Below the pieces are notes generated by a model. That model ran no database searches and was not told where the DNA came from. It saw only the letters and a list, made by a program, of their open reading frames with translations. Shown piece after piece: positions 16,551-53,829 of a stretch of DNA of 61,138 nucleotides (position 1 is the first letter of the stretch; each line of letters opens with the position of its first letter). The position numbers were made by a program, and so were the translations under genes. This stretch comes from an uncultured bacterium. GTDB lineage: Bacteria; Patescibacteriota; Minisyncoccia; Phycocordibacterales; PALSA-1337. The stretch covers positions 1-61,138 of the forward strand of contig CAILTI010000025.1 in NCBI GenBank assembly GCA_903837075.1, read 5' to 3'.

Positions 16551-17474
16551 CTATTTCTGTAGTTCAAAGAAATTTCGTGCGTTGGCAAGGACTCGTTCGG
16601 CGACTTTATCAGCACTTTCACCACGAATCTCGGCTATCTTTTTTACAACTTCGATAACATAGGATGGTTCGTTCCTCTTGCCTCGATATGGTATCGGTGC
16701 CACAAATGGGCAATCAGTCTCTGTCATTATCTTGTCGGCTGGTGCCGATCGGATAAGTTCGTCGTAATTCCGTGCAAAAGTGACCACGCCAGTAAATGAA
16801 ATGCTGCAGCCCATCGACAACGCCTCATTCATGTCCTCCATCGTACCCGCAAAGAAATGAAAATTTGCAGGAACTTTCGCATACGTGCGCAATATTTGGA
16901 TAGCTTCCTGATAGGCATTACCGCCCGCTTCTGTCAGTGGCGCACCCTTTTGGGAGGAGTAGCTTCCTCCCTCAAACCCATAAAGGGAATCGGGAGGAAC
17001 CTCTCCTCCCAAGCGGGTGCGCGTATTTATAGAAACTTTCGAATTTACAGTAGCATTCCTCACATGCAACATGAGAGGTTTCCTGACAATATTTGCCAAT
17101 TCGATATGTTGGATGAAAACTACTCTTTGATGCGCCATATTCGCCGGTTCGGAATGAAAATAGTCTAGTCCACATTCACCTATAGCGACAACTTTTGGAT
17201 GCCGCGCCAACTCCGTGAATGCAGCAATGTCGAATGAACTATCTTTGGGTGGACCATCACCCCTCGATCCGGCTGCTTCCGTAGGATGCATACCTATGAT
17301 GGCCCACATGTCATCGTGTTTCTCTGCCAACACGACGCACGCCCTTGAGGACACGAGATCTGTCCCCACCGTGATGATGCCGACACCGGCATCATGTGCG
17401 CGCTTTATAACTTCTTCCCTATCTGCGTCATATTCAGGAAAATTGACGTGACCATGTATGTCTATGTAGTTCAT
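16551..17474 (-). CDS. tatD: TatD-family metal-dependent hydrolase, carrying a family A insert
   Basis: IDIHGHVNF, GECGLDY, LMLHVRNA, ETDCPF motifs. Confidence 0.9.
   Translation of the reverse strand: MNYIDIHGHVNFPEYDADREEVIKRAHDAGVGIITVGTDLVSSRACVVLAEKHDDMWAIIGMHPTEAAGSRGDGPPKDSSFDIAAFTELARHPKVVAIGECGLDYFHSEPANMAHQRVVFIQHIELANIVRKPLMLHVRNATVNSKVSINTRTRLGGEVPPDSLYGFEGGSYSSQKGAPLTEAGGNAYQEAIQILRTYAKVPANFHFFAGTMEDMNEALSMGCSISFTGVVTFARNYDELIRSAPADKIMTETDCPFVAPIPYRGKRNEPSYVIEVVKKIAEIRGESADKVAERVLANARNFFELQK
16940..17022 (+). repeat. Family A palindromic element, best copy (83 nt), in frame in tatD
   Basis: GCGCACCC tttt GGGAGGAgtagctTCCTCCC tcaaa CCCataaaGGG aatc GGGAGGAacctcTCCTCCC aagc GGGTGCGC. 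Confidence 0.9.
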
Positions 17475-21538: not shown

Positions 21539-21646
21539 AATCTTGGTAACAGAGTGTAGAAGGGGTACGGATATTTTCCTGCTGGAAAATTCCTCGTGCT
21601 CGCACCAGTGCTCGCAAGCCCCCTTCTCCCCTCTGTTACCAAGATT
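21539..21646 (+). repeat. Family B element, intergenic copy 18 nt after the glyQS stop
   Basis: 62-nt core GGGGTACGGATATTTTCCTGCTGGAAAATTCCTCGTGCTCGCACCAGTGCTCGCAAGCCCCC flanked by AATCTTGGTAACAGAG / CTCTGTTACCAAGATT. Confidence 0.9.
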
Positions 21647-26404: not shown

Positions 26405-29400
26405 CTAGATTCCCAATTTTACCGACATATCACCGACCATTTGCGTCTCCCCCTCAACACCGGTATATAGAATGACATTCAGTGAAGTTGCTCCGATTAT
26501 TGCTGGCTCATTCCTTTCGACGAACTTCCGACCTTCGTCATCGACTTCGATTTTCAAATCTACCTTGTCATTCAGTGTCAGTCCCTTCTCTTTACGCAGA
26601 TCCTGAATCATACGGATAAGTTCACGGACCATGCCTTCTTCCTTGAGTTCCGGAGAGATCATGATATCGAGATCTATTCTCACGCCACCAGAATCTATAA
26701 ATAGATGGTTGTCCTTTTCTACAACTTTAGATTTCGCGTCACTGGACGACGGCTCTAGAGCTGTCGATGCGATAACGACCTTCTCTGACACGACACACTT
26801 TACATTCAATTTTTCTTTGATGATGTCACGAAAACCCTCTGAGATATCTGCCACAGGCTTTTCTGAAGACACTTTCCCTTCATTGGTAACACCAACACCG
26901 AGATCATATACCAATCTCGCCAATGGCTGTCGAACACCTATCTTCTTGTATGAACGTAGAGACAATGCCACTTCGACGATCTTTCGCGTCGTTCCCATCT
27001 GAGCGAGCAACTTCTCATCTATCTTGTGTGCGGTCGGCCAATTCTCTAGATGCACACTCTCGAGCTCGCCTCCTACCTCTCCGTAAACGTGATCCGCGAA
27101 AAATGGTGCCATAGGTGCCATGACCTTCGAAAGCGTCATGAGGACATAGCGTAGAGTCATGAGCGCCTCAGACTTCTCTGTGGCACTACCCTTGAAACGA
27201 TCCCTGGAACTCTGCAAATACCACTGAGAAAGATCGGCGATAAAATCTCTGATCGCTCTAGTTGGTTCTAGGAATTTGTAAGCATCTAGATTTTCCGTAA
27301 CAGTCTGAATGAGCTGATCCAGGCGGTTCAATATCCATCGATCGAGGACATTCGAGAGACTAGAGTTCCAACCTTCACCAAGATTTCGGCTGGTGGATAC
27401 CGTGTAAGATATGGAGTGATCGGCATACAATTTGTAGAATGACAAAACATTCTCCACCATATTGAATACTTTCTTGACCATCTCATCAACGGTCTTCTCG
27501 TCAAAGTTTTTGGAATCGCCAGGTTGATTGACCGAATACATCCACAGACGCAATGCATCAACTCCGTATTTATCCATCATTTCCCATGGACTAACGACGT
27601 TACCTATCGACTTGCTCATCTTCTTGCCCTTCACATCTAGAACGTGCCCGAGACAAATAACATTCTTGTAGGCCGCTCCTTTGCCCATGATCGTACCGAT
27701 CGCATGCAATGTGTAGAACCACCCCCTTGTCTGATCGATCGCCTCAGAAATGAAATCCGCCGGATATGGCATCTTCTCATTCTTTGCACCCAAGATATGA
27801 TCTTGCGCAAAAGGCATAGATCCAGAATCGAACCAGACGTCCATAACCTCCTTGGCACGGTTCATCGGACTACCACAATCACAGACCAATTTCACAGCAT
27901 CTATGAATGGTCGGTGTAGATCGAGTTCATAGTTGGCATCATGTGGCACCTTGGAAAATTCTACTTTTCTAACCTCGGCATTCCCGATAAAATCGCCGGT
28001 TTTTCTCAGACCTTTGGCACTCTCTATATCGATACCCATAGCCGCCGCACACAGCAGCATTGCAGGAGTCTCATGAGTGATGATCAATATATTCTTTCCT
28101 TCATATTTACTATCAATATCATAGAGAAATTCGCCTGTTCTTTTCTTTATATCCATGTAATCCTCTCCACCCTCTGGCCTCCAGAACCATCTATCCTGAC
28201 CAGCGTGAGCGTGACCGAGTTCAGAAACTGGCTTACCCTCGAAAACTCCAGTGCTATATTCTCCGACACGTTTATCGACGATCACCTGTGACGCATCCAA
28301 CCCTAGTGCAGGCGCCACGATCTTGGCGGTTTCCAATGTTCGTAATATTGGTGAAACATATATGAGATCGATCTTCAATGACTTCAGTTGTTTCATCGCT
28401 GTCTCGATCTGCGTCCTACCTTTCATGGTCAGATGATTCGTCGTCGTGATACTACTGTCGAGAATGCCCAAGATATTATTATCAGCCTCACCATGTCGCA
28501 TGACATGATATGTATTCCTCGGTTTCTCGATGATCTCAGCAACAGAGCCGATCACCCTGTTAGCATGACAAGAGTGACATGTCCATACCGGTAACGGCGT
28601 TCCCCAGTATCTCTCACGCGATATTGCCCAATCTTTGACTTCACGAAGCCACTCACCAAACCTCCCTTCTTTGGTATGGTCTGGCTCCCAATGAATGCTC
28701 TCATTTTCCTTGACCAACTTTTTGCGAAGTTCTGACATCCGGATGTACCAGCTGTCACGTGCAAAATATATGAGTGGCGTATGACAGCGCCAACAGAATG
28801 GATATGTATGCTCGTATTTTTCCTTGGCAAACAAAAGTCCGCGGCCTGCCAGGTCCCTGATGATGGTCACGTCGGTGTTAGGATCTTTGACAAAGGCACC
28901 AGCCAAGAATCCAGCCTCCTTCTTGAATGTCCCGTCCTCATGAACCAGATGATATTTTGGCAAACCAACCTTTGTACCGAGTTCAAAGTCATCCTGACCA
29001 TACATGACCGCCGTATGCACTATACCTGTACCATCAGACGTCGTGACGAAGTCCGCAGCATATACTTTGTAGGCGTTTCCTAATTTTTCCTTTTCAGCAC
29101 CTGATATATGGTCTTTGAGAAATGGGTAAAGTGGCTCGTACTCTACTCCGACGAGGGCGGAACCTTTGATGGTTTCGACTATTTCTGGTTCAGTGAATTG
29201 ACCTTTGATCACTTCATATCTGTCCTTGGCAACTATATAGGTTTCTTCTGCGCTCCTGACCTTCACATAATCAATCTTCGGATTTACTGCCAAACCAACA
29301 TTGCCTGGCAATGTCCACGGCGTGGTCGTCCATGCCAATAGATATGTAGGCGATGTCTGATTCTGAATTTTGGATTTTGGATTTGTTTCGGATTTTGGAT

Positions 29401-30079
29401 TTGGAATTTTGAATTTGACTGTCAACGAGAGGTCCTTCACTGTCTGATATCCTTGTGCCAATTCATGAGAAGATAATGCCGTACCACATCTCGGACACCA
29501 AGGCACCACCTTATAATCTTTATAGAGTAACTCTTTCTCATCCGCGGTTTTTATGACATTCCAAACTGCCTCGATATATTTTGGCTTGTATGTGATGTAT
29601 GGATCCTTGAGATCTGCCCAGTAACCGATCCTCTCCGTGAACTCTGTCCATTCATTTACATATCTCCAAACACTCTCTTTGCATTTGTCATTGAATGCAC
29701 CGATGCCATAGGAATCGATCTCTTTCTTGGACTTCAATCCTAGCTCTTTCTCCACTTGCAGTTCGACTGGTAGTCCATGAGTATCCCAACCTCCTTTCCT
29801 TCGCACATGATAACCGCGCATAGTTTTGTAGCGTGGAATGGCGTCCTTGAATGCACGCGCCTCGAGGTGGTGAATACCTGGATGCCCATTGGCTGTCGGT
29901 GGTCCTTCATAGAAAACGAACTCCCCTTTTGGAGCCTTGCCGGCAGGCCATTTATTCAATGATTTTTCGAAAATACCCTTCTCTTTCCATCGTGCCAAAA
30001 TCTTCTCCTCACGAAGCGCGTGAGTGCTTTTCAGGATCTTGACTCCTTCGGGCTTTGTGTTGTCTATCTGATCAGCCAT
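26405..30079 (-). CDS. ileS: Isoleucyl-tRNA synthetase (type 2) with an embedded histidine-phosphatase domain
   Basis: PTANGHPGIHH, WTTTPWTLP, KMSKSIGN. 1224 aa; residues ~520-712 are a PGAM-like domain. Confidence 0.97.
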   Translation of the reverse strand: MADQIDNTKPEGVKILKSTHALREEKILARWKEKGIFEKSLNKWPAGKAPKGEFVFYEGPPTANGHPGIHHLEARAFKDAIPRYKTMRGYHVRRKGGWDTHGLPVELQVEKELGLKSKKEIDSYGIGAFNDKCKESVWRYVNEWTEFTERIGYWADLKDPYITYKPKYIEAVWNVIKTADEKELLYKDYKVVPWCPRCGTALSSHELAQGYQTVKDLSLTVKFKIPNPKSETNPKSKIQNQTSPTYLLAWTTTPWTLPGNVGLAVNPKIDYVKVRSAEETYIVAKDRYEVIKGQFTEPEIVETIKGSALVGVEYEPLYPFLKDHISGAEKEKLGNAYKVYAADFVTTSDGTGIVHTAVMYGQDDFELGTKVGLPKYHLVHEDGTFKKEAGFLAGAFVKDPNTDVTIIRDLAGRGLLFAKEKYEHTYPFCWRCHTPLIYFARDSWYIRMSELRKKLVKENESIHWEPDHTKEGRFGEWLREVKDWAISRERYWGTPLPVWTCHSCHANRVIGSVAEIIEKPRNTYHVMRHGEADNNILGILDSSITTTNHLTMKGRTQIETAMKQLKSLKIDLIYVSPILRTLETAKIVAPALGLDASQVIVDKRVGEYSTGVFEGKPVSELGHAHAGQDRWFWRPEGGEDYMDIKKRTGEFLYDIDSKYEGKNILIITHETPAMLLCAAAMGIDIESAKGLRKTGDFIGNAEVRKVEFSKVPHDANYELDLHRPFIDAVKLVCDCGSPMNRAKEVMDVWFDSGSMPFAQDHILGAKNEKMPYPADFISEAIDQTRGWFYTLHAIGTIMGKGAAYKNVICLGHVLDVKGKKMSKSIGNVVSPWEMMDKYGVDALRLWMYSVNQPGDSKNFDEKTVDEMVKKVFNMVENVLSFYKLYADHSISYTVSTSRNLGEGWNSSLSNVLDRWILNRLDQLIQTVTENLDAYKFLEPTRAIRDFIADLSQWYLQSSRDRFKGSATEKSEALMTLRYVLMTLSKVMAPMAPFFADHVYGEVGGELESVHLENWPTAHKIDEKLLAQMGTTRKIVEVALSLRSYKKIGVRQPLARLVYDLGVGVTNEGKVSSEKPVADISEGFRDIIKEKLNVKCVVSEKVVIASTALEPSSSDAKSKVVEKDNHLFIDSGGVRIDLDIMISPELKEEGMVRELIRMIQDLRKEKGLTLNDKVDLKIEVDDEGRKFVERNEPAIIGATSLNVILYTGVEGETQMVGDMSVKLGI

Positions 30080-30233
30080 TTTGTTTGTAGGCCTATTCTA
30101 GCACCAAGGATAGATCCTGTCAGTAAATAGCACGTAAGCATCCCCCACCGTACATGAGTGAATCTGCGGGGGCAAGGAGGTCGCGCGCGCTCATTTCATA
30201 TTGAATATTCCGCAAGCAGTGAATTCAAAGCAA

Positions 30234-33200
30234 TCAAAGCTTCGCTGCGGAGAAAGCACAGCCGACATAGGAATACGAGACCCCCGGACCGCCCGTGAGG
30301 ACGCGGCCGCCGACAGCACCGAAGTCCCCGGCGAAAACGACGTAGCCAAAGGACGTGCGCGATTTAGTCCATGAATATGTATTTGGCAACAGTCGTTCGC
30401 CTGTAGCACGTTCCGTTAGGACCGTACGATAGAACCATTCAATGAATGATTCGCGGAACATCTGGGTCAATTTCAATTTTTCAAGAGTATCCGCGGCTGA
30501 TTTCCACTTAGGATCGTCTGATGACATAGAGTCGTCTTGAAGCTTTCTGAATTCTTGTTTATTGCTTTTCAGAGCAATCCATTCTCCGAGAGCTTCCTTG
30601 ACGTCCTTGGGCATCTCTTCATTTCCATATAAACCAACAACATAATCAGCCAAAACACCGGTCTGTTCGAGATAGTTTCTGTTCGTCGATTCAGGAATCA
30701 TGTCCTTCGAGACGAGTTTCCAGCGTAATTCTGCCCCTTCTTTAGTAAAGAATTTTTCATTTTTATACCACTCAGTATCGTAAAGAAGTTTTGTAGCGTC
30801 TTTTTTCTTATCCCCTAGCATTCCGTAAAGTCTTTTCCCATCAACCTTTTCAAAACTTCCATGCATACTTGACACAGGAATTATCTGACTACCCCCATAT
30901 AATATAAGTTGGTGTGTATCCTTCAGCCTCTCAATTAATTCTAGTGAAAAAGGAATATCCGGAATTTTTTCTGGAAATTCTAGTCCTAGTGCCGCTTTAA
31001 CCTCCTCCGGTCCATAGAAATTCGCTCCCATGATTTCCTTGGCTTCTTTCATTGTAATGCCTTCATGTGGTAAAGAAGCCTCAAAAGTACTCCACCCCTT
31101 CTCCATTTCATCTCTCATATTTACGACTCTCGCCATATCTCCAGTCCTAGCACATTCATCGAGTAATACTTGGAACTCATGAGTTTTATTCGTGCAGCTT
31201 TCAATGAATTGATCAACAAGCGAAACAACTGCTGGAATTTTATAACCCTTAAATTTTTCCTTGGTAGTTTTCAGTCTTTCGGAATATGATTGTTGGAATA
31301 ACTCCAATTCATTCAATTTTTCCGCTACCGCAATGTCCGGACTAATTGCTTCCTCCGATACTGTCCCCTTCTTCCTATAATCCGGCCATCTTGTTCTTTC
31401 CGGCCCTGTACCGAAAACAGTATCGACTACCTGGCGCGGGCCGTTAAATTCTATTTTCGGCGCAGGGACTTCTGGAGCGCTCACTTTGAAAGCGGAAACT
31501 GTGCCTTTCGAGCCATAATCAGGGTTCTGTTCCCATTTACCTCCTTGGAAAAATCCATACTGATCCTTGAACAGTTGATACAAATAGGCCTTGTCGGAAA
31601 GCTTTGTGGGCTGATTGACGAATTCGGTAAAAACATAGTGATCAAGCTCGTTCCGATAACCATCATTCTGCCAAGCCGTTATTATCCTGTCCATGCCGCG
31701 TATAGACAGCACACCCTCTTTCAGGCGATATTCAAACGACGTAGTTCCACCGCCCTGATTGAAGAATTGCGATTTATCGACAGAACCGCCGGAAAAATTG
31801 TCTTCCGTGGCACGCGCGGCCTTGGCCAGATTCCAGAGCTTGCGCAATTCGCCTTCAGGTATTTCTATATTACCGTTCTTATCCATAACTCGTGACACGA
31901 TCAATTCAAAAAGCTCATTCCTGCCACCCCTGCCGTCGCCAGCGCTCGCTTCATCCAGTGTACCGACTTTCACCTGCGGCAAATAATCATGCTTCATCAA
32001 ATGCAGTCGTGAGAGAAAAGCTGGATCAAGATCCTGGCGCATGACATAACGATCGGCACCGCCTTCATTTATATTACCCGTGAGTATGAAGCCAAATCCT
32101 TCTGCAATCTTCACTTCACTGCCACTATTTTGTTGTATCCTGATAACATCTCCGACCTTACGAGTGAGAAGATGATTCAGACTGATCAAAACATCGTGCG
32201 GGATAGCATTGACCTCGTCGAGAATGATCGGTCGGCCTTCAGACATGGCTTGGTAGACTTGACCCATATAAAAGTCGGAGACTGTACCGCTACGATACTC
32301 GTAAGCCAATCTTTCCTGCAAACCGGATTTGATCAGATCGAACTGCTGTTCGGCCTCTTTATCTTTTGCTTCAGGATTTTCTTTCCTCCACCTATCCATT
32401 TCATCGTTTACCGTCTTTAGGAAAGTTTTATAGCGCTTTTCCGATTCGTTAGGATCGACTTCACGCAAACTCAAAACTTGATGACCAAAAAGCTCCGCAG
32501 GTGAAGTATGTTTCGAACCAGAGATGATCAACGCTTCTTTATCAAAATATTTGCGCGCTACGTGAAAAGCCAGTTCAGTTTTTCCTGATCCAAGATGGCC
32601 GTGAATAAATACCGGCTGGCCGGCTCGAACATGGGAAACTATTTCTTCTGCTTGCTTGCGCACGTAATCCGTCTCGACTATCTTGCCAGATTCTAGTTGC
32701 TCCTTGTACCCCTTCAATTCTTTTAGGTTAAGTCCGTACCATGCTTCCGGAGATGATTGCTTTAATTTCTCGCCTGCCGCATCTAGTGCGCGTTCTTTTT
32801 CTGCTGCCTTGGATAACAAGGTCCGCTCTGCAGAAACTGACTTGCCAGCACCCTGATTGGTTATCATTTTCTTGATAATGCCAGTTTCAAATGCGACTAT
32901 TCGTCCGCGTTCCCTTTCTAGTGCAGCTTCCGTCTTCATTGCCCGAGACAAGTTCATCCACCTCAAAGAGGCCAGGGCTTTTTCCGGAGAGGCTCCGTCT
33001 CCCAAAAGCTTTTCGTAGGCTTCCTCGTGTGCGATCTTCTCCGCCTGTATACTGTCAGCATCAGATTCGTTCAGAGGCTCGATACCGAGCTCTGACAAGA
33101 GCTTCTCGTCTGCCTTGCCGCTTTCAGAAACGTTCACGAAGTCCACTTCCACTTTTCCACCCAACGCAACAGACTTGCGTTTCAAAACTTCTGCCTTGTT

Positions 33201-33539
33201 TACATTTGACTCAGCTTTGACCCACTCATCAGTAGATAAAGGTTGACCATCCATCAACGCTTCAGCAATCAACTTGCCCGAAAGCGGATCCTCCGGTTTG
33301 GTGTCTTCAATAATTCTTATTTTATAAGGCCTACCAGGTTCAATATTCGATCCTACCGGAAGTTCTATTGACTTTCTGTCAGGGCTGCTTGATTTGTAGC
33401 CGATAACTTTACCTTTTTTGTCTTTGATTTCTTTGAAAACAACGTCCTCCAGAATTTTTTCTTTGCCAACAGCAGATTCTGTAGTCATGGCCGGTTTCTG
33501 TTGATCTTCTGGTGTTCTTGGACTTTCTGGTGATTTCAT
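30234..33539 (-). CDS. 1101-aa MoxR/AAA_5-type AAA+ ATPase with large unassigned N- and C-terminal regions
   Basis: Walker A GHLGSGKT (res 314-321), Walker B PIILDEVN, sensor FILTGN, DPAFLSRL. Confidence 0.8.
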   Translation of the reverse strand: MKSPESPRTPEDQQKPAMTTESAVGKEKILEDVVFKEIKDKKGKVIGYKSSSPDRKSIELPVGSNIEPGRPYKIRIIEDTKPEDPLSGKLIAEALMDGQPLSTDEWVKAESNVNKAEVLKRKSVALGGKVEVDFVNVSESGKADEKLLSELGIEPLNESDADSIQAEKIAHEEAYEKLLGDGASPEKALASLRWMNLSRAMKTEAALERERGRIVAFETGIIKKMITNQGAGKSVSAERTLLSKAAEKERALDAAGEKLKQSSPEAWYGLNLKELKGYKEQLESGKIVETDYVRKQAEEIVSHVRAGQPVFIHGHLGSGKTELAFHVARKYFDKEALIISGSKHTSPAELFGHQVLSLREVDPNESEKRYKTFLKTVNDEMDRWRKENPEAKDKEAEQQFDLIKSGLQERLAYEYRSGTVSDFYMGQVYQAMSEGRPIILDEVNAIPHDVLISLNHLLTRKVGDVIRIQQNSGSEVKIAEGFGFILTGNINEGGADRYVMRQDLDPAFLSRLHLMKHDYLPQVKVGTLDEASAGDGRGGRNELFELIVSRVMDKNGNIEIPEGELRKLWNLAKAARATEDNFSGGSVDKSQFFNQGGGTTSFEYRLKEGVLSIRGMDRIITAWQNDGYRNELDHYVFTEFVNQPTKLSDKAYLYQLFKDQYGFFQGGKWEQNPDYGSKGTVSAFKVSAPEVPAPKIEFNGPRQVVDTVFGTGPERTRWPDYRKKGTVSEEAISPDIAVAEKLNELELFQQSYSERLKTTKEKFKGYKIPAVVSLVDQFIESCTNKTHEFQVLLDECARTGDMARVVNMRDEMEKGWSTFEASLPHEGITMKEAKEIMGANFYGPEEVKAALGLEFPEKIPDIPFSLELIERLKDTHQLILYGGSQIIPVSSMHGSFEKVDGKRLYGMLGDKKKDATKLLYDTEWYKNEKFFTKEGAELRWKLVSKDMIPESTNRNYLEQTGVLADYVVGLYGNEEMPKDVKEALGEWIALKSNKQEFRKLQDDSMSSDDPKWKSAADTLEKLKLTQMFRESFIEWFYRTVLTERATGERLLPNTYSWTKSRTSFGYVVFAGDFGAVGGRVLTGGPGVSYSYVGCAFSAAKL

Positions 33540-33614
33540 GATATTAAATGGTATTAAAATGCCTATATTTTAGGCCATATTTAGATTTCTAAGATAATCG
33601 ATCACCATGTGTAC

Positions 33615-33643
33615 TTGACAAATATGGTGGGGTCTGCTATATT
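33615..33643 (+). promoter_or_regulatory. Sigma70-like promoter TTGACA-17-TATATT
   Basis: TTGACA at 33615-33620, TATATT at 33638-33643. Confidence 0.45.
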
Positions 33644-33649
33644 AATAAC

Positions 33650-33883
33650 GGTATAGAGGGTTCGTGAAGTGTTTCCGAAACTCTCAATTGTTCGTTAAGA
33701 TCGGTGCGCGAGGGCATATTGTAAATGGTACTGACCATTCAATAATACCACGTAGATATGGGTTAGCCAAACCCACACATGCACAGCGCTTTCATTAAGC
33801 TCCGCTGATCGGAAAGGCCTAGCCACGGCCGACCGCAAAGCGTAGTCATACCCCCCATAAAAAAATGGGGGGTGTTCTATTTT
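33650..33883 (+). ncRNA. Candidate ~234-nt RNA between the vWA and AAA+ genes, antisense orientation, class unknown
   Basis: Consensus promoter plus CCCCCCA taaaaaaa TGGGGGG followed by a T-rich tail. The 3' half is GC-rich and structured. Confidence 0.35.
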
Positions 33884-33899
33884 CGAGATAATGCCATTC

Positions 33900-36224
33900 T
33901 CATATTGATACGTCCCCTAGATACTCCTTCAATGCCTTTGTAATGGCTGGAATAAGAGCGGAGATGTTCACACCCACACGTAAACCACATTCCTTTTCCC
34001 TGCCTTCATTCCATACAGAATCAAAGATGTTTTGTTCACTACGACTCACTTGACCTATTTGAAAAGCTCTCGTAATAACCTTTTTTTCTATCAACTTATC
34101 CACGGCTACCCTAGCATCATCGGGACTACTAGATCCACCGTCGGTTATTTCGAAAACTATATCCATAATCTTGCCGGATTCTATTCTTTCTGTATCATCA
34201 GGCGTTAGTGAATCCAAAATACTGGAAAGAGCCACGTCGTCATACGTACCCCCATTGGCATCTTGAATATGGTTAAAGATAGAAACCATTTCTATATTAT
34301 CCCTATCGTCAGATGATTTAATTTTTTCTGCAGTATTACCGAATGTCCAACCTTCGGTTTCGATTTCCAGTTTTGATCTTGTTTCGGCTCTCGTAACATT
34401 CAAATATGTTTGGAACTCATCCAATGAACTGAATACGAGCGTCATTGCCAGTTGCAAAATATGTAATCTTTCATCATTCATAGAACCAGACATATCGCCG
34501 ACGACGCGCACACGGATAAGCTCTGGTTTTTGAGTCACTACTTCTTTGTCTTCTATTTTTTTGAATATTTTCGTTTGCTCGAATTTGCCTTCCTGGATAC
34601 TTCCCCAATCTTCGATAGTTTTTTGGATATCCAGCTCGTCTCCTGTTTTAAAGTGTCCTTCCATTCCACGCACGATCTCCCGCGATGTGCCAAATATTAT
34701 ATGCCTCCACAGTGCAGACAATTCGTCCAGATAAGGAGCGATCTCCGCTTGAACCTGCCTGAATCTGGCAAGATTTTCTAGAAGTTGTTCCTTGGAAAGT
34801 CCTCGTGAAGCGTTCTTCTTAGCCCATTGCTCATCTTCATTTTTCTGCGTATCGGTTGCCTTTTCTTGCGGGGTCCGCTCATCTTCTGCCTTGAGCTTTT
34901 TTTCTTCTTCATCCTTGGCCTGTTCCACCTTTTTCATTTCCTCTTCCTTCTTTCCTTTCACCTCTTCAAACTTTTTGAACAAATCCTTCATATCCTCAGG
35001 TGGCAATTGATCAATGGTATTTTCTTGCCATTCTTTTATTTCTTTTTCAAAAGGAGTTGTGGGTGGCAATTCACCTGTCTCTACACCCCCGTTCTCTCCT
35101 TTTGATTCCTGGGGTTCTTGTGGCTTTTCTTTTTCACCTTGATCTTTTGTATCCTCTGACTCCTGTGATTGTTCCTCTGGCGGCTTCCATTCCGGTTTCC
35201 AATCCGCGATATCTTTTGCCAAAAGTTCTTTGAATATCGGTTCCAGTGTTCTCCTCAGAATAGTATAACGTTCACCAGCTTTTGTATCTCTACCAGTCCT
35301 TGGTTTGATGAAAGTAGTAATGAGCTCCTTTGCGGTATACGATTTTCCAGCAAATTGAATTTTTCTATTTAGTGCCTCCTCCACATCCGGCGAAACGACA
35401 CATTGTTCGTCAGGAACATTGTCGTCACGCAAAAGTTTATTGATGAATTGGCGATGCCGTGACTCACCTTTTGAATAATCAAATCCCGGAAATAATTTTT
35501 CCTTGTAAAGCGATTCTATTTCCTTGCCGCCTTCTGTGCCTCTCTCGAACGAAGCGGCCTTACGCGAAACAGCATTGTTGACCCAGATATCATCTAAAGA
35601 GTTATAAAATGGATGATGTATTTTGTAGGCCGACTGCGCCAAGCTATTGAATGTGCCCATTTCCGGCCTTTCTGGATTGGCCGGTGTTGTTTTTTTAAGA
35701 TGATCGAGGAAAGCTTTTTGCTTTGGATCGCTTTGATCGAGTACTGTTTCCCACTTGCGCAACATGATGTCGCCAGTTTTTCTGGCCTCATCGGCAATAT
35801 GGTCGAAATTCTGCATCAATCTTTTCGGATCAGTCTTGAAGTCATCAAAGTGCCCAATTTCATGCATACATGCCCACAGAATCTGACGCTCTGAAAAGCC
35901 CTTGTTATAAAACCAGTCGGTGGCCAGATTTACTTCGCCTTTTTGAAAGTCAAAATAGAAAGCCTGACCAAGCTTGAAACGGATCGATGTGTCGCCGGAA
36001 AAACTGGCAAAAAATCCTGTTTTTGAGTATCGGTCGATGAAAGCTTGCGCGCGTTCACGATATGCTTCTATGCCTTCATTGTTTTCAAGAGCTGGGACAG
36101 CGTCAGGTAAGGCAACTTTTGGCTTTTCCAGCGGATCAGGAGAATCCTTGATCGGTTCAGTGACCTCAAAAGATAAAGGTTTCATGTTATCACTATACCT
36201 TATTCCCCATATTTTTCCACACAC
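33900..36224 (-). CDS. HExxH metallopeptidase-like / acidic linker / C-terminal vWA (MIDAS) protein
   Basis: MHEIGH at res 120-125. DMSGS MIDAS at res 577-581, with ..TDGGSS. E/K-rich linker at res 340-470. The track start is a GTG; the ATG at 36185 (MKPLSFEV) is more likely. Confidence 0.8.
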   Translation of the reverse strand: MCGKIWGIRYSDNMKPLSFEVTEPIKDSPDPLEKPKVALPDAVPALENNEGIEAYRERAQAFIDRYSKTGFFASFSGDTSIRFKLGQAFYFDFQKGEVNLATDWFYNKGFSERQILWACMHEIGHFDDFKTDPKRLMQNFDHIADEARKTGDIMLRKWETVLDQSDPKQKAFLDHLKKTTPANPERPEMGTFNSLAQSAYKIHHPFYNSLDDIWVNNAVSRKAASFERGTEGGKEIESLYKEKLFPGFDYSKGESRHRQFINKLLRDDNVPDEQCVVSPDVEEALNRKIQFAGKSYTAKELITTFIKPRTGRDTKAGERYTILRRTLEPIFKELLAKDIADWKPEWKPPEEQSQESEDTKDQGEKEKPQEPQESKGENGGVETGELPPTTPFEKEIKEWQENTIDQLPPEDMKDLFKKFEEVKGKKEEEMKKVEQAKDEEEKKLKAEDERTPQEKATDTQKNEDEQWAKKNASRGLSKEQLLENLARFRQVQAEIAPYLDELSALWRHIIFGTSREIVRGMEGHFKTGDELDIQKTIEDWGSIQEGKFEQTKIFKKIEDKEVVTQKPELIRVRVVGDMSGSMNDERLHILQLAMTLVFSSLDEFQTYLNVTRAETRSKLEIETEGWTFGNTAEKIKSSDDRDNIEMVSIFNHIQDANGGTYDDVALSSILDSLTPDDTERIESGKIMDIVFEITDGGSSSPDDARVAVDKLIEKKVITRAFQIGQVSRSEQNIFDSVWNEGREKECGLRVGVNISALIPAITKALKEYLGDVSI

Positions 36225-36234
36225 CCAAAAAGAT

Positions 36235-38085
36235 CTACATCCTCTTCGGTACCTTGATTCCGAGCAACCACAACCCTTCAGTCATCGTCCTCAAGAACGT
36301 CCTGGTAACGAGCAGTCGATAGACCGACAACGGGTCCTGGATGTCTATGATAGTTTGTGTCGCATAAAATGCATTGAATGCGCCGGCGAGCTGCACGAGG
36401 TAGTTCGCCACACCCTGTGGTGCATACTCATCTCCTGCACGCCCCGCGATATCAGTGAAGCGAACGATCAACCTTTCTAGCAGGCCGACTGTCTCTGGCA
36501 ACATTACTTCCCCCTTGTCCAGACCCTTTATACTCTCCTTAACCGCTTTGTCCAATATCGATTGCGCCCTAACCGCTGAATATTGCAGATATGGCCCAGA
36601 ATCTCCCTCGAAGGATATAGATGCCGCGGAGTCAAAAACGACATTGCCACCGATCGCCTGACGGAGGATGGTGTATTTGATAGCCCCGATCGCGATCATA
36701 TCAGCGATCTCATCCGCCTCATCAACATCGAATGCTCTATCAGCGATCTTTTCCATGACCATCTTCTTCATATCTCCGATCAATGACTCGGCAGCTATCA
36801 CATTGCCTGTCCTAGATGACATCTTGCCAGTGGCAAACCTGAGCATACCGTGTCCGATATGTATAGTCTTTGAACCGTTCTTCTCATCGATCAGAGAAAG
36901 TACTTTCGTGAGCACCTTGAAATATTCATTCTGCTCGTTGGCTGTGATGATGATGGACTTTGTGGCATCTGGATATTTCTGAAATTTTGTTACGTTCAAT
37001 CCAACATCCTTCGTCTCATATGTCGGCAGTCCGCGACTATTCACAAATACGCGAGTATGTAGCCCGTGATCTTCACCTTTGAATACGATCGCTCCATCAC
37101 TCTCTTCGAATACACCGATATTCGCACCCAAATCTGTCGATTTTGTATCACCCGATCTTTCGGCTTGTTCACCTTTCATATGCTCCCTCACCACCTTCAT
37201 GCCTACCGGAGCCATCTCACTCTCGAATATTTGCCGATCGAACTTCGTGCCCAGAAGTTGGTAAAGCATATCGAAATGTTCCAAACTCCATGCCCTGCCC
37301 TTTTCATAGAGATCATTCACCGCTTCATCAGACTCATCGTAGACTGCCTGGTTCAATTCATCTATCTCATTCTTCGCCGACGGGTCAGTGTCATAGATAT
37401 TGGTACCTTCGACATACATCTTGCCCAGAAATGCCGTCCTCTCTGCTATAGGTGCCGCTTCACTCGGTATCTCACCTAGGTGCAGTTGCATCGCCCAGAT
37501 CGCCTTGGCGATATGCAGACCGATATCCGACGGATAGCAGATTCTCACAACTTTCGCGCCACCAAATTCTATCAACCTAGAAATGGATTCCCCGATAGTA
37601 TTCGACATGACATGCCCGATGTGAAATGCCTTGAACGTATTGGGGTCTGTGTATTCGATGAGAACGGTGTTCCCTTTTCCGTCCTTTTGGGAGGAGTAGC
37701 TTCCTCCCTCCTGCCGGCCGGCAGGCACGGCAAACCCGTAAAAGGAATCGGGAGAAACCTCTCCTCCCAAGCGGGCAGATTTACTAATCTTAACAACATC
37801 CTCCGCAAAAACCTTATCCTCAATTTTAAAATTTATGAATCCCGGTCCAGCCATAGAAATATCTCGTATTCCCAATCCTTCAATATTTGAATTCTTCAAT
37901 CTTTCAATGATTTTCTCCGCCAACTCCTTCGGAGCCATCTGCAATTGCTTGGCATATGAGAGTGCGGCGTTCGTCGAAAAGTCTCCGTGGTCCAGATTTT
38001 CCGGATAATCTATCTTTACCAGTGGCTCGGAGATGCCGAGATCTATGAGAACAGTCCTCAATGCGTCGATGATGTATTGCTTCAT
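36235..38085 (-). CDS. argS: Arginyl-tRNA synthetase, carrying a family A insert
   Basis: AFHIGHVMS (HIGH-type), DALR-type C-terminal domain, C-terminal ..KRM. Confidence 0.95.
   Translation of the reverse strand: MKQYIIDALRTVLIDLGISEPLVKIDYPENLDHGDFSTNAALSYAKQLQMAPKELAEKIIERLKNSNIEGLGIRDISMAGPGFINFKIEDKVFAEDVVKISKSARLGGEVSPDSFYGFAVPAGRQEGGSYSSQKDGKGNTVLIEYTDPNTFKAFHIGHVMSNTIGESISRLIEFGGAKVVRICYPSDIGLHIAKAIWAMQLHLGEIPSEAAPIAERTAFLGKMYVEGTNIYDTDPSAKNEIDELNQAVYDESDEAVNDLYEKGRAWSLEHFDMLYQLLGTKFDRQIFESEMAPVGMKVVREHMKGEQAERSGDTKSTDLGANIGVFEESDGAIVFKGEDHGLHTRVFVNSRGLPTYETKDVGLNVTKFQKYPDATKSIIITANEQNEYFKVLTKVLSLIDEKNGSKTIHIGHGMLRFATGKMSSRTGNVIAAESLIGDMKKMVMEKIADRAFDVDEADEIADMIAIGAIKYTILRQAIGGNVVFDSAASISFEGDSGPYLQYSAVRAQSILDKAVKESIKGLDKGEVMLPETVGLLERLIVRFTDIAGRAGDEYAPQGVANYLVQLAGAFNAFYATQTIIDIQDPLSVYRLLVTRTFLRTMTEGLWLLGIKVPKRM
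37678..37777 (+). repeat. Family A element in frame in argS, with nested 16-nt GC palindrome
   Basis: TTTTGGGAGGAGTAGCTTCCTCCCTC + CCTGCCGGCCGGCAGG + ..AAACCCGTAAAAGGAATCGGGAGAAACCTCTCCTCCCAAGC. Confidence 0.9.
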
Positions 38086-46378: not shown

Positions 46379-46476
46379 ATAACAATGAATGGTGCAGGGG
46401 TACGGATATTTTCCTGCTGGAAAATTCCTCGTGCTCTCACCAGTGCTCGCAAGCCCCCTTCACCCTTCATTGTTAT
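46379..46476 (+). repeat. Family B element, intergenic copy 22 nt after the DUF541 gene stop
   Basis: The core differs from the 21539-21646 copy at one position. Flanks are ATAACAATGAA / TTCATTGTTAT. Confidence 0.9.
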
Positions 46477-48310: not shown

Positions 48311-49309
48311 TCATTTTGCACTCCACCTGGCATAGATACCAGCCGGTAGCAATCTCATTCCTTCCTCCTTCCTTCCCTCTCCTATCGCGAGCTCCCCTAT
48401 CTCTATATGTCCACCAAATTTTTCCACGAGTGGTAGCAAATTATTTTCATAAGCCACCGCCGAGTAACCGGCCGAATAACCATTGATGAGGAAAAATAGC
48501 GGCCGATCTTTCAATAATGTTATACATTGATCGATGAGTGGCAAAAAATGTTCTTCTATCTTCCAAAGCTCACTATCCGGTCCATGACCGAATGCTGGCG
48601 GATCCATGATGATACCGTCGTATCTATTACCCCTTTTCAATTCCCTGCGTACGAATTCCCTGGCATCATCCATGATCCAGCGAACAGGTTTGTCTTTGAG
48701 ACCAGATAACTCCGCATTGTCTCGCGCCCAGGTCATCGCGGTTTTCGATGAGTCGACGTGCACAACATTCGCACCAGATTGTGAGCACGCTAGAGTCGCT
48801 CCGCCCGTGTAACCGAATAAATTTAGAATATTTATAGTATCGCTTTCTGTCTGAGAAGATTGAACGGGCACGGATATTTTCTTGCTAGAAAATTCCTCGT
48901 GCTCGCCCCGTCGGGCTCGCAAGCCCCCTTCACTCTTCTCAGACAGAAAGCTTTGAATGATATTTCGTAACCAATCCCAATTCGCTGATTGCTCTGGGAA
49001 AATACCGACATGCTTGAAAGATGAAGGTTTCACCCACAGCTTGAGTCCGCCAAATTCTATCGGCCATCTATCGAGTTTGCCGTTTTTCATCGTCCACTTG
49101 CCGTCACTACCATCACGAGAAAAGTGTCCGTCTGCTTTCGCCCATTCAGTTTGTGCCGACTTCTTGTGCCACAACGCCTGTGGATCTGGCCTAGAGAGAA
49201 CCACCGTACCAAAACGTTCGAGCCTCTCCCCCTCTCCAGAGTCGATCAACTCATAATCGGCACTCGACTCGGTTACCAAGATGTTAGATATTTTATTCAG
49301 ATTTGACAT
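48311..49309 (-). CDS. Class I SAM-dependent (RlmI/RlmK-like rRNA) methyltransferase, carrying a family B insert
   Basis: HVGIFPEQ, NLFGYTGGATLA (motif I), IIMDPPAFG (motif IV). Confidence 0.8.
   Translation of the reverse strand: MSNLNKISNILVTESSADYELIDSGEGERLERFGTVVLSRPDPQALWHKKSAQTEWAKADGHFSRDGSDGKWTMKNGKLDRWPIEFGGLKLWVKPSSFKHVGIFPEQSANWDWLRNIIQSFLSEKSEGGLRARRGEHEEFSSKKISVPVQSSQTESDTINILNLFGYTGGATLACSQSGANVVHVDSSKTAMTWARDNAELSGLKDKPVRWIMDDAREFVRRELKRGNRYDGIIMDPPAFGHGPDSELWKIEEHFLPLIDQCITLLKDRPLFFLINGYSAGYSAVAYENNLLPLVEKFGGHIEIGELAIGEGRKEEGMRLLPAGIYARWSAK
48842..48951 (+). repeat. Family B element in frame inside the methyltransferase gene
   Basis: The core carries compensatory changes. 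Perfect 18-bp flanks GCTTTCTGTCTGAGAAGA / TCTTCTCAGACAGAAAGC. Confidence 0.9.
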
Positions 49310-53154: not shown

Positions 53155-53829
53155 ATGAAATTAACATACGCAAAATATCTAGGCGCTATCGCCATTACAG
53201 GGGCGTTAGTTGCTATAACGACACTTCCAGCATTCGCAGCAACCAATAGCAACAAAAATGACGACCGAGACGAAAGGTCGTCTATCGCCTCATCTACATA
53301 TCGAGGTCCAGGAATGATGAATGGTCGGTATGGTAACGCTACAACAACGAGAATGATGTACAACAGATCGGATACTGATAAAAATAGAACTGGTACAAGC
53401 ACCAGAATGATGAATGGTCGGTATGGTAACGCTACAACAACGAGAATGATGAATGGTCGCTGGAATGCAACCTCCACCAATGAAAACCAGATTCCACTGA
53501 TCACCGGCAACGGACGACCAGTGGTCGCCGGAACAGTTTCATCTGTGACCGGTACGACAGTCACGATCACGACCGCCAGTAACATTAGTTACACCGTGGA
53601 CGTCTCCAGTTCAACAGTGAATCGCAACAAACTATCCAGTACCGCTTCTGCCATCGTGGTCGGTGATTACGTCATCGTCCAAGGAACAGTGAATGGTAAT
53701 TCTGTTGTGGCTTCATCTGTTATAGATAGCTCTGTCGTTCCTCCAAATACTATTCCACCAGGCGGTCCAGGAAACATGGGCTTCCTAGGTTCTGTAGGAG
53801 GATTCTTCAGACACCTATTCGGCTTCTGA
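53155..53829 (+). CDS. Secreted protein with internal exact duplication and DUF5666-like C-terminal half
   Basis: Signal peptide. MMNGRYGNATTTRMM occurs twice. TGTTVTITT...GDYVIVQGTVNGNSVVASSV. Confidence 0.6.
   Translation: MKLTYAKYLGAIAITGALVAITTLPAFAATNSNKNDDRDERSSIASSTYRGPGMMNGRYGNATTTRMMYNRSDTDKNRTGTSTRMMNGRYGNATTTRMMNGRWNATSTNENQIPLITGNGRPVVAGTVSSVTGTTVTITTASNISYTVDVSSSTVNRNKLSSTASAIVVGDYVIVQGTVNGNSVVASSVIDSSVVPPNTIPPGGPGNMGFLGSVGGFFRHLFGF

What the first reader, a model, noticed from the sequence alone, without database searches (positions are those of the whole stretch)
30234..36224. Giant MoxR/AAA_5 ATPase and HExxH-vWA protein pair wedged between argS and ileS
Two non-housekeeping giants interrupt a run of core genes. 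The first (774 aa) has a putative zinc-peptidase site MHEIGH (DNA 35850-35864), a ~130-aa E/K-rich acidic linker, and a C-terminal vWA domain with an intact MIDAS site (DMSGS at 34482-34496, then TDGGSS). The second (1101 aa) has an AAA_5-type module (GHLGSGKT at 32577-32600, PIILDEVN, FILTGN, DPAFLSRL). About 310 N-terminal and about 560 C-terminal residues have no motif I recognise. It ends in a locally GC-rich, Gly-rich tail (..GDFGAVGGRVLTGGPGVSYSYVGCAFSAAKL). MoxR-type ATPases paired with vWA proteins are a known association, and NTPase-vWA modules have been proposed as conflict or chaperone systems. This oversized version, with a peptidase head and an antisense RNA unit in the 360-bp spacer, is not a layout I recognise. 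There is no integrase or other mobility signature nearby.
Basis: partly seen in the sequence, partly recalled or inferred. Interest (0 to 1): 0.65.

Follow-up and report, generated by a model that had tools for sequence, protein, structure and literature searches.

The report
Relic hypermutation target: ATPase–vWA pair
The two giant genes are a Midasin-like ATPase and its zinc-motif/vWA partner, a pair that in related Patescibacteria travels with a diversity-generating retroelement; here the retroelement has been deleted, leaving the ATPase's once-hypermutated tail frozen.

Summary
All eight independent orthologous loci with downstream sequence carry a template repeat, and the seven that extend far enough also carry Avd and a reverse transcriptase. 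Template-VR mismatches fall almost only on template adenines. The window has no template, Avd or RT. It keeps a 46-nt scar of the cassette (30177-30222). Its VR has 6.7% A and is identical in a 90%-identical relative, so it is probably frozen.

The HExxH-linker-vWA partner accompanies the ATPase family in 22 of 24 well-flanked loci. The ATPase core is closest to Midasin AAA modules. Its C-terminal ~275 aa is a free-standing, multi-copy protein in other Patescibacteria. The 360-bp spacer holds a conserved antisense ~235-nt RNA candidate with a near-consensus promoter, a terminator and covarying hairpins.

AAA-ATPase DGR targets in CPR bacteria and DGR-linked MoxR-vWA conflict systems are already published. 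This is therefore a variant of a known kind. I found no description of the zincin-vWA partner, the RNA or the decayed state. The biochemical function is inferred, not shown.

The parts
33900..36224 (-). HExxH-head / acidic-linker / vWA(MIDAS) protein. The maximal ORF is 774 aa; the probable start is ATG at 36185 (761 aa).
   Evidence: 65 homologues, all Patescibacteria-type. Invariant H121, E122, H125, F126, D128, D212, N216, D577, S579, S581.
35190..36185 (-). N-terminal alpha/beta domain carrying the invariant HExxH (HEIGH at 35850-35864); candidate zincin.
   Evidence: AF2 model pLDDT 87.5, pTM 0.85. A three-stranded sheet precedes the HExxH helix. No PDB match by Foldseek, and no Pfam, NCBIfam or PADLOC hit.
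34785..35192 (-). E/K/D-rich low-complexity linker (residues 345-480).
   Evidence: 48% E+D+K. Length varies among homologues.
33903..34517 (-). vWA domain with an intact MIDAS site (DMSGS at 34482-34496; T694-D695-G696).
33650..33885 (+). Candidate ~235-nt small RNA, antisense to the vWA-ATPase spacer. Promoter at 33615-33643, two hairpins with UAGCCA loops (around 33757-33777 and 33812-33832), terminator at 33848-33885.
   Evidence: Promoter and terminator scan. Conserved in L001 (two copies), L004, L005, L006, L009 and L017, and partially in L003. 94% of cells paired, 7 of 17 pairs with compensatory changes, covariation 0.44 against 0.25 in shuffles. MFE z = -3.2. No Rfam family.
30234..33539 (-). 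1101-aa AAA_5 ATPase fused to a DGR-target module.
31980..32672 (-). AAA+ core (residues ~290-520): Walker A GHLGSGKT, Walker B ILDEVN, sensor-1 N489, R501/R511.
   Evidence: Invariant columns in 40 homologues. Pfam AAA_5. The core profile matches Midasin AAA modules at E=4e-34 and NorQ at 6e-3.
30237..31061 (-). C-terminal 'A_C' module (residues ~827-1101), a putative ligand-binding domain. It is free-standing (~310 aa) in other loci.
   Evidence: Six tandem paralogues plus one more in L007 (blastp E from 3e-20 to 2e-9). 956 clusters in 1.84 billion representatives. No Pfam or PDB relative. AF2 pLDDT 70 overall, with the VR part below 45.
30242..30360 (-). DGR variable region (last ~40 codons), now without a template.
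   Evidence: It aligns to the VRs and TRs of L001, L003, L004 and L073. Against the L073 TR it has 34 mismatches, 24 of them at the 32 TR adenines. A content is 6.7%, the lowest 119-nt window of the gene.
30177..30222 (-). 46-nt scar of the DGR cassette. In intact loci this conserved element lies ~45 nt upstream of the TR.
   Evidence: 89-93% identical to L001, L003, L004 and L006, with shorter matches in L009 (37 nt, 92%) and L005 (23 nt, 100%). Alignments show ~115 nt, including the post-VR hairpin, deleted upstream of it, and TR/Avd/RT missing downstream.

Best explanation
The two genes are the surviving core of a Patescibacteria DGR cassette.

Shown: the 1101-aa protein is an AAA_5 (Midasin/NorQ-like) ATPase. 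Its C-terminal module ends in a DGR variable region. Orthologues have the template repeat, Avd and reverse transcriptase immediately downstream and show adenine-specific rewriting. In this lineage the template and retroelement genes were deleted. A 46-nt scar and an adenine-depleted VR remain, and the VR is identical in a 90%-identical relative. The HExxH-linker-vWA gene is the ATPase's near-obligate neighbour. A conserved antisense small-RNA gene lies between them in this clade.

Inferred: both proteins are cytoplasmic. The ATPase forms a ring, and the partner's MIDAS domain, tethered by the acidic linker, docks on it as in Midasin or NorQ/NorD. The variable module binds a specific, probably foreign, intracellular ligand. 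ATP hydrolysis then remodels that ligand, or hands it to or activates the HExxH head. This would be a sensor-effector ('ternary-type') conflict system whose receptor was tuned by hypermutation and is now fixed at one specificity.
For: - TR/VR pairs with adenine-restricted mismatches: L003 17/18, L004 10/10, L005 20/20, L006 16/17, L009 18/19, L073 15/15.
- Avd and RT lie downstream in L001, L003, L004, L005, L006 and L009.
- The window has no RT, Avd or TR.
- Scar and deletions.
- VR composition, and P0001 VR 41/41 identical against 90.0% identity elsewhere.
- The P0001 contig has the same 154-nt gap to the next gene.
- The vWA partner is present in 22/24 well-flanked loci.
- DGRs also flank short-form pairs.
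- The module is free-standing and multi-copy elsewhere.
- Catalytic and MIDAS residues are invariant.
- Midasin is the best solved relative.
- No TM segments.
- Literature precedent: PMC10907252, PMC5758913, PMC7159879.
Against: - Only 61 kb of the genome is visible, so a trans-acting DGR elsewhere cannot be strictly excluded.
- The fold of the VR-bearing module could not be assigned (Foldseek E>0.01 in PDB and BFVD), so a C-type-lectin-like binding surface is assumed, not shown.
- The HExxH domain matches no known peptidase fold or family.
- There is no PADLOC hit.
- No ligand, expression data or interaction data exist.
- The pair sits among housekeeping genes and could serve an endogenous client.
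Confidence: 0.85

Rival explanations
1. The VR is still being diversified by a DGR encoded elsewhere in the genome. Trans-acting templates on remote targets are known for DGRs.
For: The VR keeps the conserved 3' end (…GCTTTCTCCGCAGCGA) shared with active loci. CPR genomes often hold several DGRs (PMC10907252). Only 61 kb was seen.
Against: - The VR peptide is identical (41/41) in a protein only 90% identical elsewhere.
- The post-VR hairpin present in every active locus is deleted.
- 10 of 34 differences from the nearest TR fall at non-adenine sites, as expected for ordinary drift.
- The scar shows the cognate cassette was removed.
Confidence: 0.08
2. An ordinary MoxR/NorQ-NorD-type maturation chaperone pair serves an endogenous metalloprotein or complex. 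The DGR link in relatives is incidental.
For: AAA_5/vWA pairs such as NorQ/NorD and CbbQ/CbbO are cofactor-insertion or remodelling chaperones (PMC9976466, PMC13036017). The pair sits between argS and ileS and persists intact after DGR loss.
Against: - The VR lies inside the ATPase gene itself in this clade.
- In short-form loci the pair is flanked by DGR targets on both sides.
- The fused module exists as arrays of divergent paralogues.
- No client enzyme gene is conserved next to the pair.
Confidence: 0.1
3. A host-attachment or surface-recognition factor of an episymbiont, which is the usual proposal for CPR DGR targets.
For: DGR targets of CPR organisms are generally predicted to modulate host interaction (PMC8867640).
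Against: Neither protein has a hydrophobic segment (maximum KD19 1.1-1.2). The VR is covalently fused to a cytoplasmic-type AAA+ ATPase. No signal-peptide-like N-terminus is visible by inspection of the sequences.
Confidence: 0.05

Closest known systems
CPR/Patescibacteria DGR variable proteins with a fused AAA ATPase (Paul et al. 2017, as cited in PMC10907252; 'UVR4 / Midasin-motif' targets of Wu et al. 2018, PMC5758913)
   Same: A P-loop/AAA (Midasin-like) N-terminal part with a C-terminal VR. Cassette order is target-TR-avd(reverse)-RT in the orthologues, which appears to correspond to Wu et al.'s B3 architecture (the commonest in their CPR set). Patescibacterial origin.
   Different: The window copy has lost TR, avd and RT.
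vWA-MoxR(-VMAP) ternary conflict systems with DGR-diversified FGS/CLec domains (Kaur et al. 2020, PMC7159879; Doré et al. 2024, PMC10907252)
   Same: An AAA+ ATPase, a vWA/MIDAS protein and a hypervariable DGR-targeted binding module are encoded together. A peptidase function is associated with them. A cytoplasmic sensor-transducer-effector logic has been proposed.
   Different: There the VR domain is fused to the vWA protein and the peptidase sits on a third VMAP protein. Here the VR module is on the ATPase (or free-standing) and the HExxH head is on the vWA protein. No VMAP gene is present. The ATPase is AAA_5/Midasin-like rather than MoxR proper. The host lineage is CPR, not multicellular bacteria.
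Midasin/Rea1
   Same: The AAA_5 modules are the best solved relatives (E=4e-34). An acidic low-complexity linker is followed by a MIDAS-containing vWA domain.
   Different: Midasin has six AAA modules, the linker and MIDAS in one ~4900-aa chain. Here there is one AAA module per chain, and the linker and MIDAS sit on a separate protein that also has an HExxH head. There is no ribosome-biogenesis context.
NorQ/NorD and CbbQ/CbbO AAA_5-vWA chaperone pairs
   Same: A two-gene AAA_5 plus vWA(MIDAS) arrangement. Weak sequence similarity (NorQ E=6e-3, CbbQ E=0.47).
   Different: Those pairs have neither a variable module, a DGR link nor an HExxH head. Here there is no adjacent client enzyme.

Membership tests
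DGR target gene (variable protein) | 3'-terminal repeat homologous to VRs whose cognate TRs differ only at adenines | tested here: met
   Window 30242-30360 aligns in register with the VRs and TRs of L001, L003, L004 and L073. 24 of 34 differences from the L073 TR lie at TR adenines. The orthologues' own TR/VR mismatches are 92-100% at A in all loci except L001 (21 of 26).
DGR target gene (variable protein) | Cognate template repeat present | tested here: not met
   No second copy in the 61-kb window (repeat finder; blastn-short; A-bias scan). The rest of the genome was not visible.
DGR target gene (variable protein) | DGR reverse transcriptase and Avd nearby | tested here: not met
   tblastn with the L001 RT and Avd found nothing in the window. 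Both lie immediately downstream in seven distinct orthologous loci.
DGR target gene (variable protein) | Hairpin/cruciform just downstream of the VR | tested here: not met
   The inverted repeat present in L001, L004, L006 and L073 (…CCGTATGCCGTACAGGCATACGG…) falls within a ~115-nt deletion in the window.
DGR target gene (variable protein) | VR displayed on a C-type-lectin/FGE-like fold | tested here: inconclusive
   AF2 pLDDT is below 45 over the VR. Foldseek found no match in PDB or BFVD. No Pfam or PDB sequence hit. Only a loose motif resemblance exists (P-x6-7-LG-x-x-FS).
AAA_5 / MoxR-class AAA+ ATPase | Pfam AAA_5 above gathering score, with intact Walker A, Walker B, sensor-1 and arginines | tested here: met
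   44.4 bits against a cutoff of 22. G314-K320, D441, E442, N489, R501 and R511 are invariant.
AAA_5 / MoxR-class AAA+ ATPase | MoxR proper (Pfam AAA_3) | tested here: not met
   No AAA_3 hit for the window protein at E<=1. The best solved relatives are Midasin modules, then NorQ.
AAA_5 / MoxR-class AAA+ ATPase | Encoded next to a vWA/MIDAS protein | tested here: met
   22 of 24 loci with at least 2.6 kb on both sides.
vWA domain with MIDAS | DxSxS … T … D metal-site residues within a vWA fold | tested here: met
   D577, S579 and S581 are invariant; T694 and D695 are nearly invariant. The profile hits TRAP vWA at E=6e-5. Pfam VWA hits 9 of 41 members.
Zincin metallopeptidase | HExxH on a helix following a beta-sheet, plus a third zinc ligand; known zincin fold | tested here: inconclusive
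   HExxH is invariant, and the model's sheet-then-helix topology is compatible. No third ligand was assigned, and there is no Foldseek or Pfam match.
VMAP-ternary conflict system (Kaur et al. 2020) | [quoted passage not shown] | tested here: not met
   No third gene in the window: argS and ileS flank the pair. The VR is on the ATPase. PADLOC gave no significant hit. VMAP-specific profiles were not available.
Rfam RNA families (spacer RNA) | Match to any curated covariance model | tested here: not met
   0 hits at gathering score. Only chance-level hits at E<=10.

The most novel reading that the evidence does not exclude
In one Patescibacteria clade, the Midasin-like ATPase, the zincin-vWA protein and the conserved ~235-nt antisense RNA with two UAGCCA-loop hairpins form a new kind of cytoplasmic sensor machine. 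Its receptor module was generated by retroelement hypermutation. In this lineage the receptor was 'hard-wired' after the retroelement was lost, so an innate receptor was captured from an adaptive-like diversification system. The RNA would be a dedicated regulator or subunit.
Probability: 0.15. Interest if true: 0.75.

Novelty: new variant of a known kind. Interest (0 to 1): 0.45.

Why it matters
- It turns an unexplained pair of 'giant hypotheticals' into a defined object: the fixed remnant of a hypermutation system.
- It shows that in Patescibacteria the DGR cassette usually travels with a two-protein, Midasin-like ATPase/MIDAS machine bearing a conserved HExxH head.
- That points to an intracellular sensing or remodelling role for CPR DGR targets, rather than surface adhesion.
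- The fusion and free-standing forms link the ATPase to its variable module.
- Lineages with and without the retroelement form a natural experiment on what happens to a hypermutated receptor when diversification stops.
- The conserved antisense RNA is a testable new non-coding RNA candidate.

Tried and rejected
- Foldseek of the C-terminal module against PDB and BFVD, and of the HExxH domain against PDB, gave no match below E=0.01.
- PADLOC and NCBIfam gave nothing significant.
- A full-length ATPase profile against PDB gave nothing. Only the trimmed AAA core worked.
- The module family has no Pfam or PDB relative.
- Rfam gave nothing for the spacer.
- IMG/VR viral contigs hold neither the ATPase family nor the RNA motif. 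I found no link to phage contigs.
- The genome-contig scan returned only two close relatives, Ca. Taylorbacteria and Ca. Parcubacteria MAGs.
- Paul et al. 2017 could not be read, so its content is cited only through other papers.
- The p265/p240 gene upstream of the pair in L001 and L005 is absent from the window and unrelated to the module family. I dropped it as a system component.
- DNA for the closest relatives (the P0001 and P0122 contigs) was not available.


Full report
OBSERVATION. The window holds two minus-strand ORFs, 30234-33539 (1101 aa) and 33900-36224 (774 aa), between argS (36235-38085) and ileS (26405-30079). The second ORF most likely starts at the ATG at 36185, giving 761 aa. 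That is the form held in the protein collection (P0121), and M14 is invariant or nearly invariant in two alignments.

- Pfam AAA_5 is significant for the large protein (E=2e-11, 44.4 bits against a cutoff of 22).
- Walker A, Walker B, sensor-1 and two arginines are invariant in 40 homologues.
- VWA is weak for the single sequence (E=0.006). It is supported by a family profile against solved TRAP vWA domains (E=6e-5).
- MIDAS residues D577, S579 and S581 are invariant, and T694 and D695 are nearly invariant.
- H121, E122 and H125 of the HExxH are invariant in 41 sequences.
- The linker (residues 345-480) is 48% E+D+K.
- Composition across the region does not differ from the rest of the window.

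WHAT THE 'GLY-RICH TAIL' IS. The first orthologue context I fetched (L001, an 858-kb contig) showed bAvd and an RVT_1 reverse transcriptase directly downstream of the 1101-aa gene. A 119-127-nt repeat links the gene's last ~40 codons to an intergenic copy ~340 nt downstream. Mismatches fall on adenines of the downstream copy, which is the signature of a diversity-generating retroelement template (TR) and variable region (VR).

| Locus | Mismatches at TR adenines |
|---|---|
| L001 | 21 of 26 |
| L003 (Ca. Taylorbacteria) | 17 of 18 |
| L004 (Ca. Parcubacteria) | 10 of 10 |
| L005 | 20 of 20 |
| L006 | 16 of 17 |
| L009 | 18 of 19 |
| L073 | 15 of 15 |

The window's tail (30242-30360, minus strand) aligns in register with these VRs and TRs. 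Against the TR of its nearest DGR-bearing relative (L073, 80-82% protein identity) it has 34 differences, 24 of them at the 32 TR adenines. The VR is 6.7% A against 31.8% in the rest of the gene. It is the most A-poor 119-nt stretch of the gene and is 66% GC. That accounts for the 'locally GC-rich, Gly-rich' look.

THE RETROELEMENT IS GONE HERE. The window holds no RT or Avd homologue (tblastn) and no TR-like copy. Only 154 nt separate the ATPase stop from the ileS start. Inside that gap, 30177-30222 is 89-93% identical to a conserved 46-nt element that in the intact loci lies about 45 nt upstream of the TR. Alignments show two losses relative to intact loci. About 115 nt between the stop codon and this element are deleted, including the inverted repeat that follows the VR in intact loci. 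Everything beyond the element (TR, Avd, RT) is missing.

The closest relative, P0001, is 90.0% identical over residues 1-1060 and has a VR peptide identical to the window's (41/41). Relatives that keep the DGR are only 54-58% identical in the VR, against 72-82% elsewhere. P0001's contig also has a same-strand gene starting 154 nt after the stop. The simplest reading is one loss in the common ancestor of these two lineages, with the VR frozen since then. Ten non-adenine differences from the nearest TR fit ordinary drift. A trans-acting DGR elsewhere in the genome cannot be strictly excluded.

THE PAIR AS A SYSTEM. The ATPase family (172 hits) has a ~620-aa core equal to query residues ~100-720. 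Most members are ~650 aa. I compared 67 non-redundant loci from genomes and metagenomes.

- The HExxH-vWA partner is present in 22 of the 24 loci that have at least 2.6 kb on both sides.
- An RT is visible in 19 loci.
- In short-form loci the DGR lies upstream of the vWA gene, and one or two separate target genes flank the pair. An example is L024: VR1, TR, Avd, RT, vWA, a gene carrying VR2, then the ATPase.
- Those targets are a different ~355-417-aa family ending …GVRSxVR.
- The window ATPase's C-terminal ~275 residues are a module of their own. L007 has six tandem ~311-318-aa paralogues plus another after the ATPase (E from 3e-20 to 2e-9).
- L013 has a free-standing copy next to the ATPase. 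L008 has a fused copy, and L026 carries the module in an ORF that overlaps the end of the ATPase ORF.
- An exhaustive search finds 956 clusters (E<=1e-3). These are mostly ~300-350-aa proteins. 22 of 67 sampled carry AAA_5, and no other domain type was found.

The fused and free-standing forms argue that the ATPase and the variable module work together.

STRUCTURE AND RELATIVES.

- The trimmed AAA core profile matches Midasin/Rea1 AAA modules best (E=4e-34). NorQ (6e-3) and CbbQ (0.47) follow.
- This agrees with Wu et al. (PMC5758913), who found that CPR 'UVR4' targets match the Midasin motif.
- The partner's acidic linker plus MIDAS domain mirrors Midasin's C-terminal arrangement, but on a separate chain.
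- The HExxH domain gives a confident AF2 model (pLDDT 87.5), with a three-stranded sheet before the HExxH helix. It has no PDB neighbour and no family hit.
- The C-terminal module gives a moderate model (pLDDT 70), with a three-helix linker and then an alpha/beta domain. The VR segment is unresolved.
- That model has no structural neighbour, so a C-type-lectin fold is not shown.
- Neither protein has a hydrophobic segment.
- The family is absent from IMG/VR viral contigs.

THE SPACER RNA. The plus strand of the 360-bp spacer has TTGACA-17-TATATT with an upstream TG (33615-33643) and an intrinsic terminator (33848-33885). The same promoter (TTGACA … TGCTATAAT/TATACT), two small hairpins with UAGCCA-containing loops, and a terminator are conserved in the spacers of L004, L005, L006, L009 and L017. 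L001 has two copies, and L003 has the element partly. On eight sequences, 94% of cells pair and 7 of 17 pairs show compensatory changes. The covariation score is 0.44, against 0.25 in shuffles (0 of 500 reach it) and at most 0.21 for slid controls. The window copy folds with z = -3.2. No Rfam family matches. The element was found only in the loci of the long-form clade related to the window: it is absent from the more distant fused-module loci L008, L013 and L026, from the short-form loci and from viral contigs. It survived the DGR loss, so it seems tied to the gene pair rather than to retrohoming. Its function is unknown. It is divergent from, or antisense to, the ATPase leader, which itself has a conserved small hairpin at 33561-33575.

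MECHANISM (inferred). Both proteins are cytoplasmic. By analogy with Midasin and NorQ/NorD, the ATPase would form a ring on which the partner's MIDAS domain docks, tethered by the acidic linker. The variable module would supply ligand specificity. ATP hydrolysis would remodel the bound ligand or couple binding to the HExxH head. This parallels the sensor-transducer-effector logic proposed for DGR-linked vWA-MoxR ternary systems (PMC7159879, PMC10907252). The domain distribution differs here: the VR is on the ATPase or free-standing, the peptidase-like head is on the vWA protein, and there is no VMAP gene. What the system recognises, and whether the head is a peptidase, remain untested.

KNOWN OR NEW. 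[quoted passage not shown] 2017. Wu et al. describe Midasin-motif targets and report that their B3 cassette order accounts for 90% of CPR DGRs; the orthologues' target-TR-avd(reverse)-RT order appears to correspond to it. The ATPase is therefore a member of a published class. I did not find four things described in the papers I could read: the near-obligate HExxH-vWA partner, the free-standing multi-copy form of the VR module, the antisense RNA, and the decayed 'frozen VR plus scar' state. I rate this a new variant of a known kind, of moderate interest.

CONTEXT. The argS/SHMT/dUTPase genes beside the pair in the window also lie within ~9 kb of the intact cassette in L005. This suggests long residence in this chromosomal neighbourhood rather than recent transfer.

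Noticed in passing
window 27956-28504 (within ileS 26405-30079, minus strand): The isoleucyl-tRNA synthetase is 1224 aa. A complete histidine-phosphatase (His_Phos_1) domain is inserted at residues 526-708 (E=9e-31), between halves of the catalytic domain.
   Followed up: partly
window 10486-10557 (FtsK), 16940-17011 (TatD), 37731-37775 (argS): A 45-72-nt hairpin-forming repeat (folds to -47 to -62 kcal/mol in the two longer copies; -32 in the argS copy) is inserted in frame in three housekeeping genes. It occurs in both orientations and adds peptides such as RLGGEVxPDSxYGF…GGSYSSQK. This resembles Rickettsia palindromic elements.
   Followed up: partly
window 21552-21633, 46387-46468, 48855-48936: Three copies of an 82-nt repeat (67-91% identical to the reference copy). 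Function unknown.
   Followed up: no
window 53312-53358 and 53405-53451; also 96-144 and 507-555: Exact 47-nt direct repeat spaced 93 nt apart. A separate 49-nt, 98%-identical repeat is spaced 411 nt apart near the window start.
   Followed up: no
window 33561-33575 (minus strand): Small conserved hairpin (GCCTAAAATATAGGC followed by ATTTTAAT) about 20 nt upstream of the ATPase start codon. It is conserved in several of the aligned orthologous spacers and may be a leader or attenuator element.
   Followed up: no
L007 992-5764 and 11235-12173: A short-form locus has six tandem ~311-318-aa paralogues of the ATPase's C-terminal module upstream of the vWA-ATPase pair, plus one more downstream. The downstream neighbour of the ATPase gave faint-to-weak Pfam WD40 hits, and the gene at the upstream end of the array ends in a WD40-like repeat. 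No RT is in view.
   Followed up: partly
L024, L027, L035, L043, L061: In short-form loci the DGR sits upstream of the vWA gene. It diversifies one or two copies of a different ~355-417-aa target family (C-terminus …YFPASGxVP…GVRSxVR) placed on either side of the pair, or between vWA and ATPase.
   Followed up: partly
L001 9250-9518 and 9655-9902: The antisense RNA gene is tandemly duplicated in this orthologue, which lengthens the spacer to 750 nt.
   Followed up: partly
L003 1-800: In the Ca. Taylorbacteria contig the vWA gene is not upstream of the ATPase. The RNA element is truncated after its first hairpin and is followed by an unrelated ORF with a coiled-coil, lysine-rich N-terminus (possibly a transposase), which suggests an insertion.
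   Followed up: no
L005 15045-18252: Immediately downstream of the intact DGR cassette lie a 926-aa DUF8128/TraG-like coupling-protein homologue and a PemK toxin. A PemK toxin also lies ~3 kb upstream of the cassette in L001.
   Followed up: no
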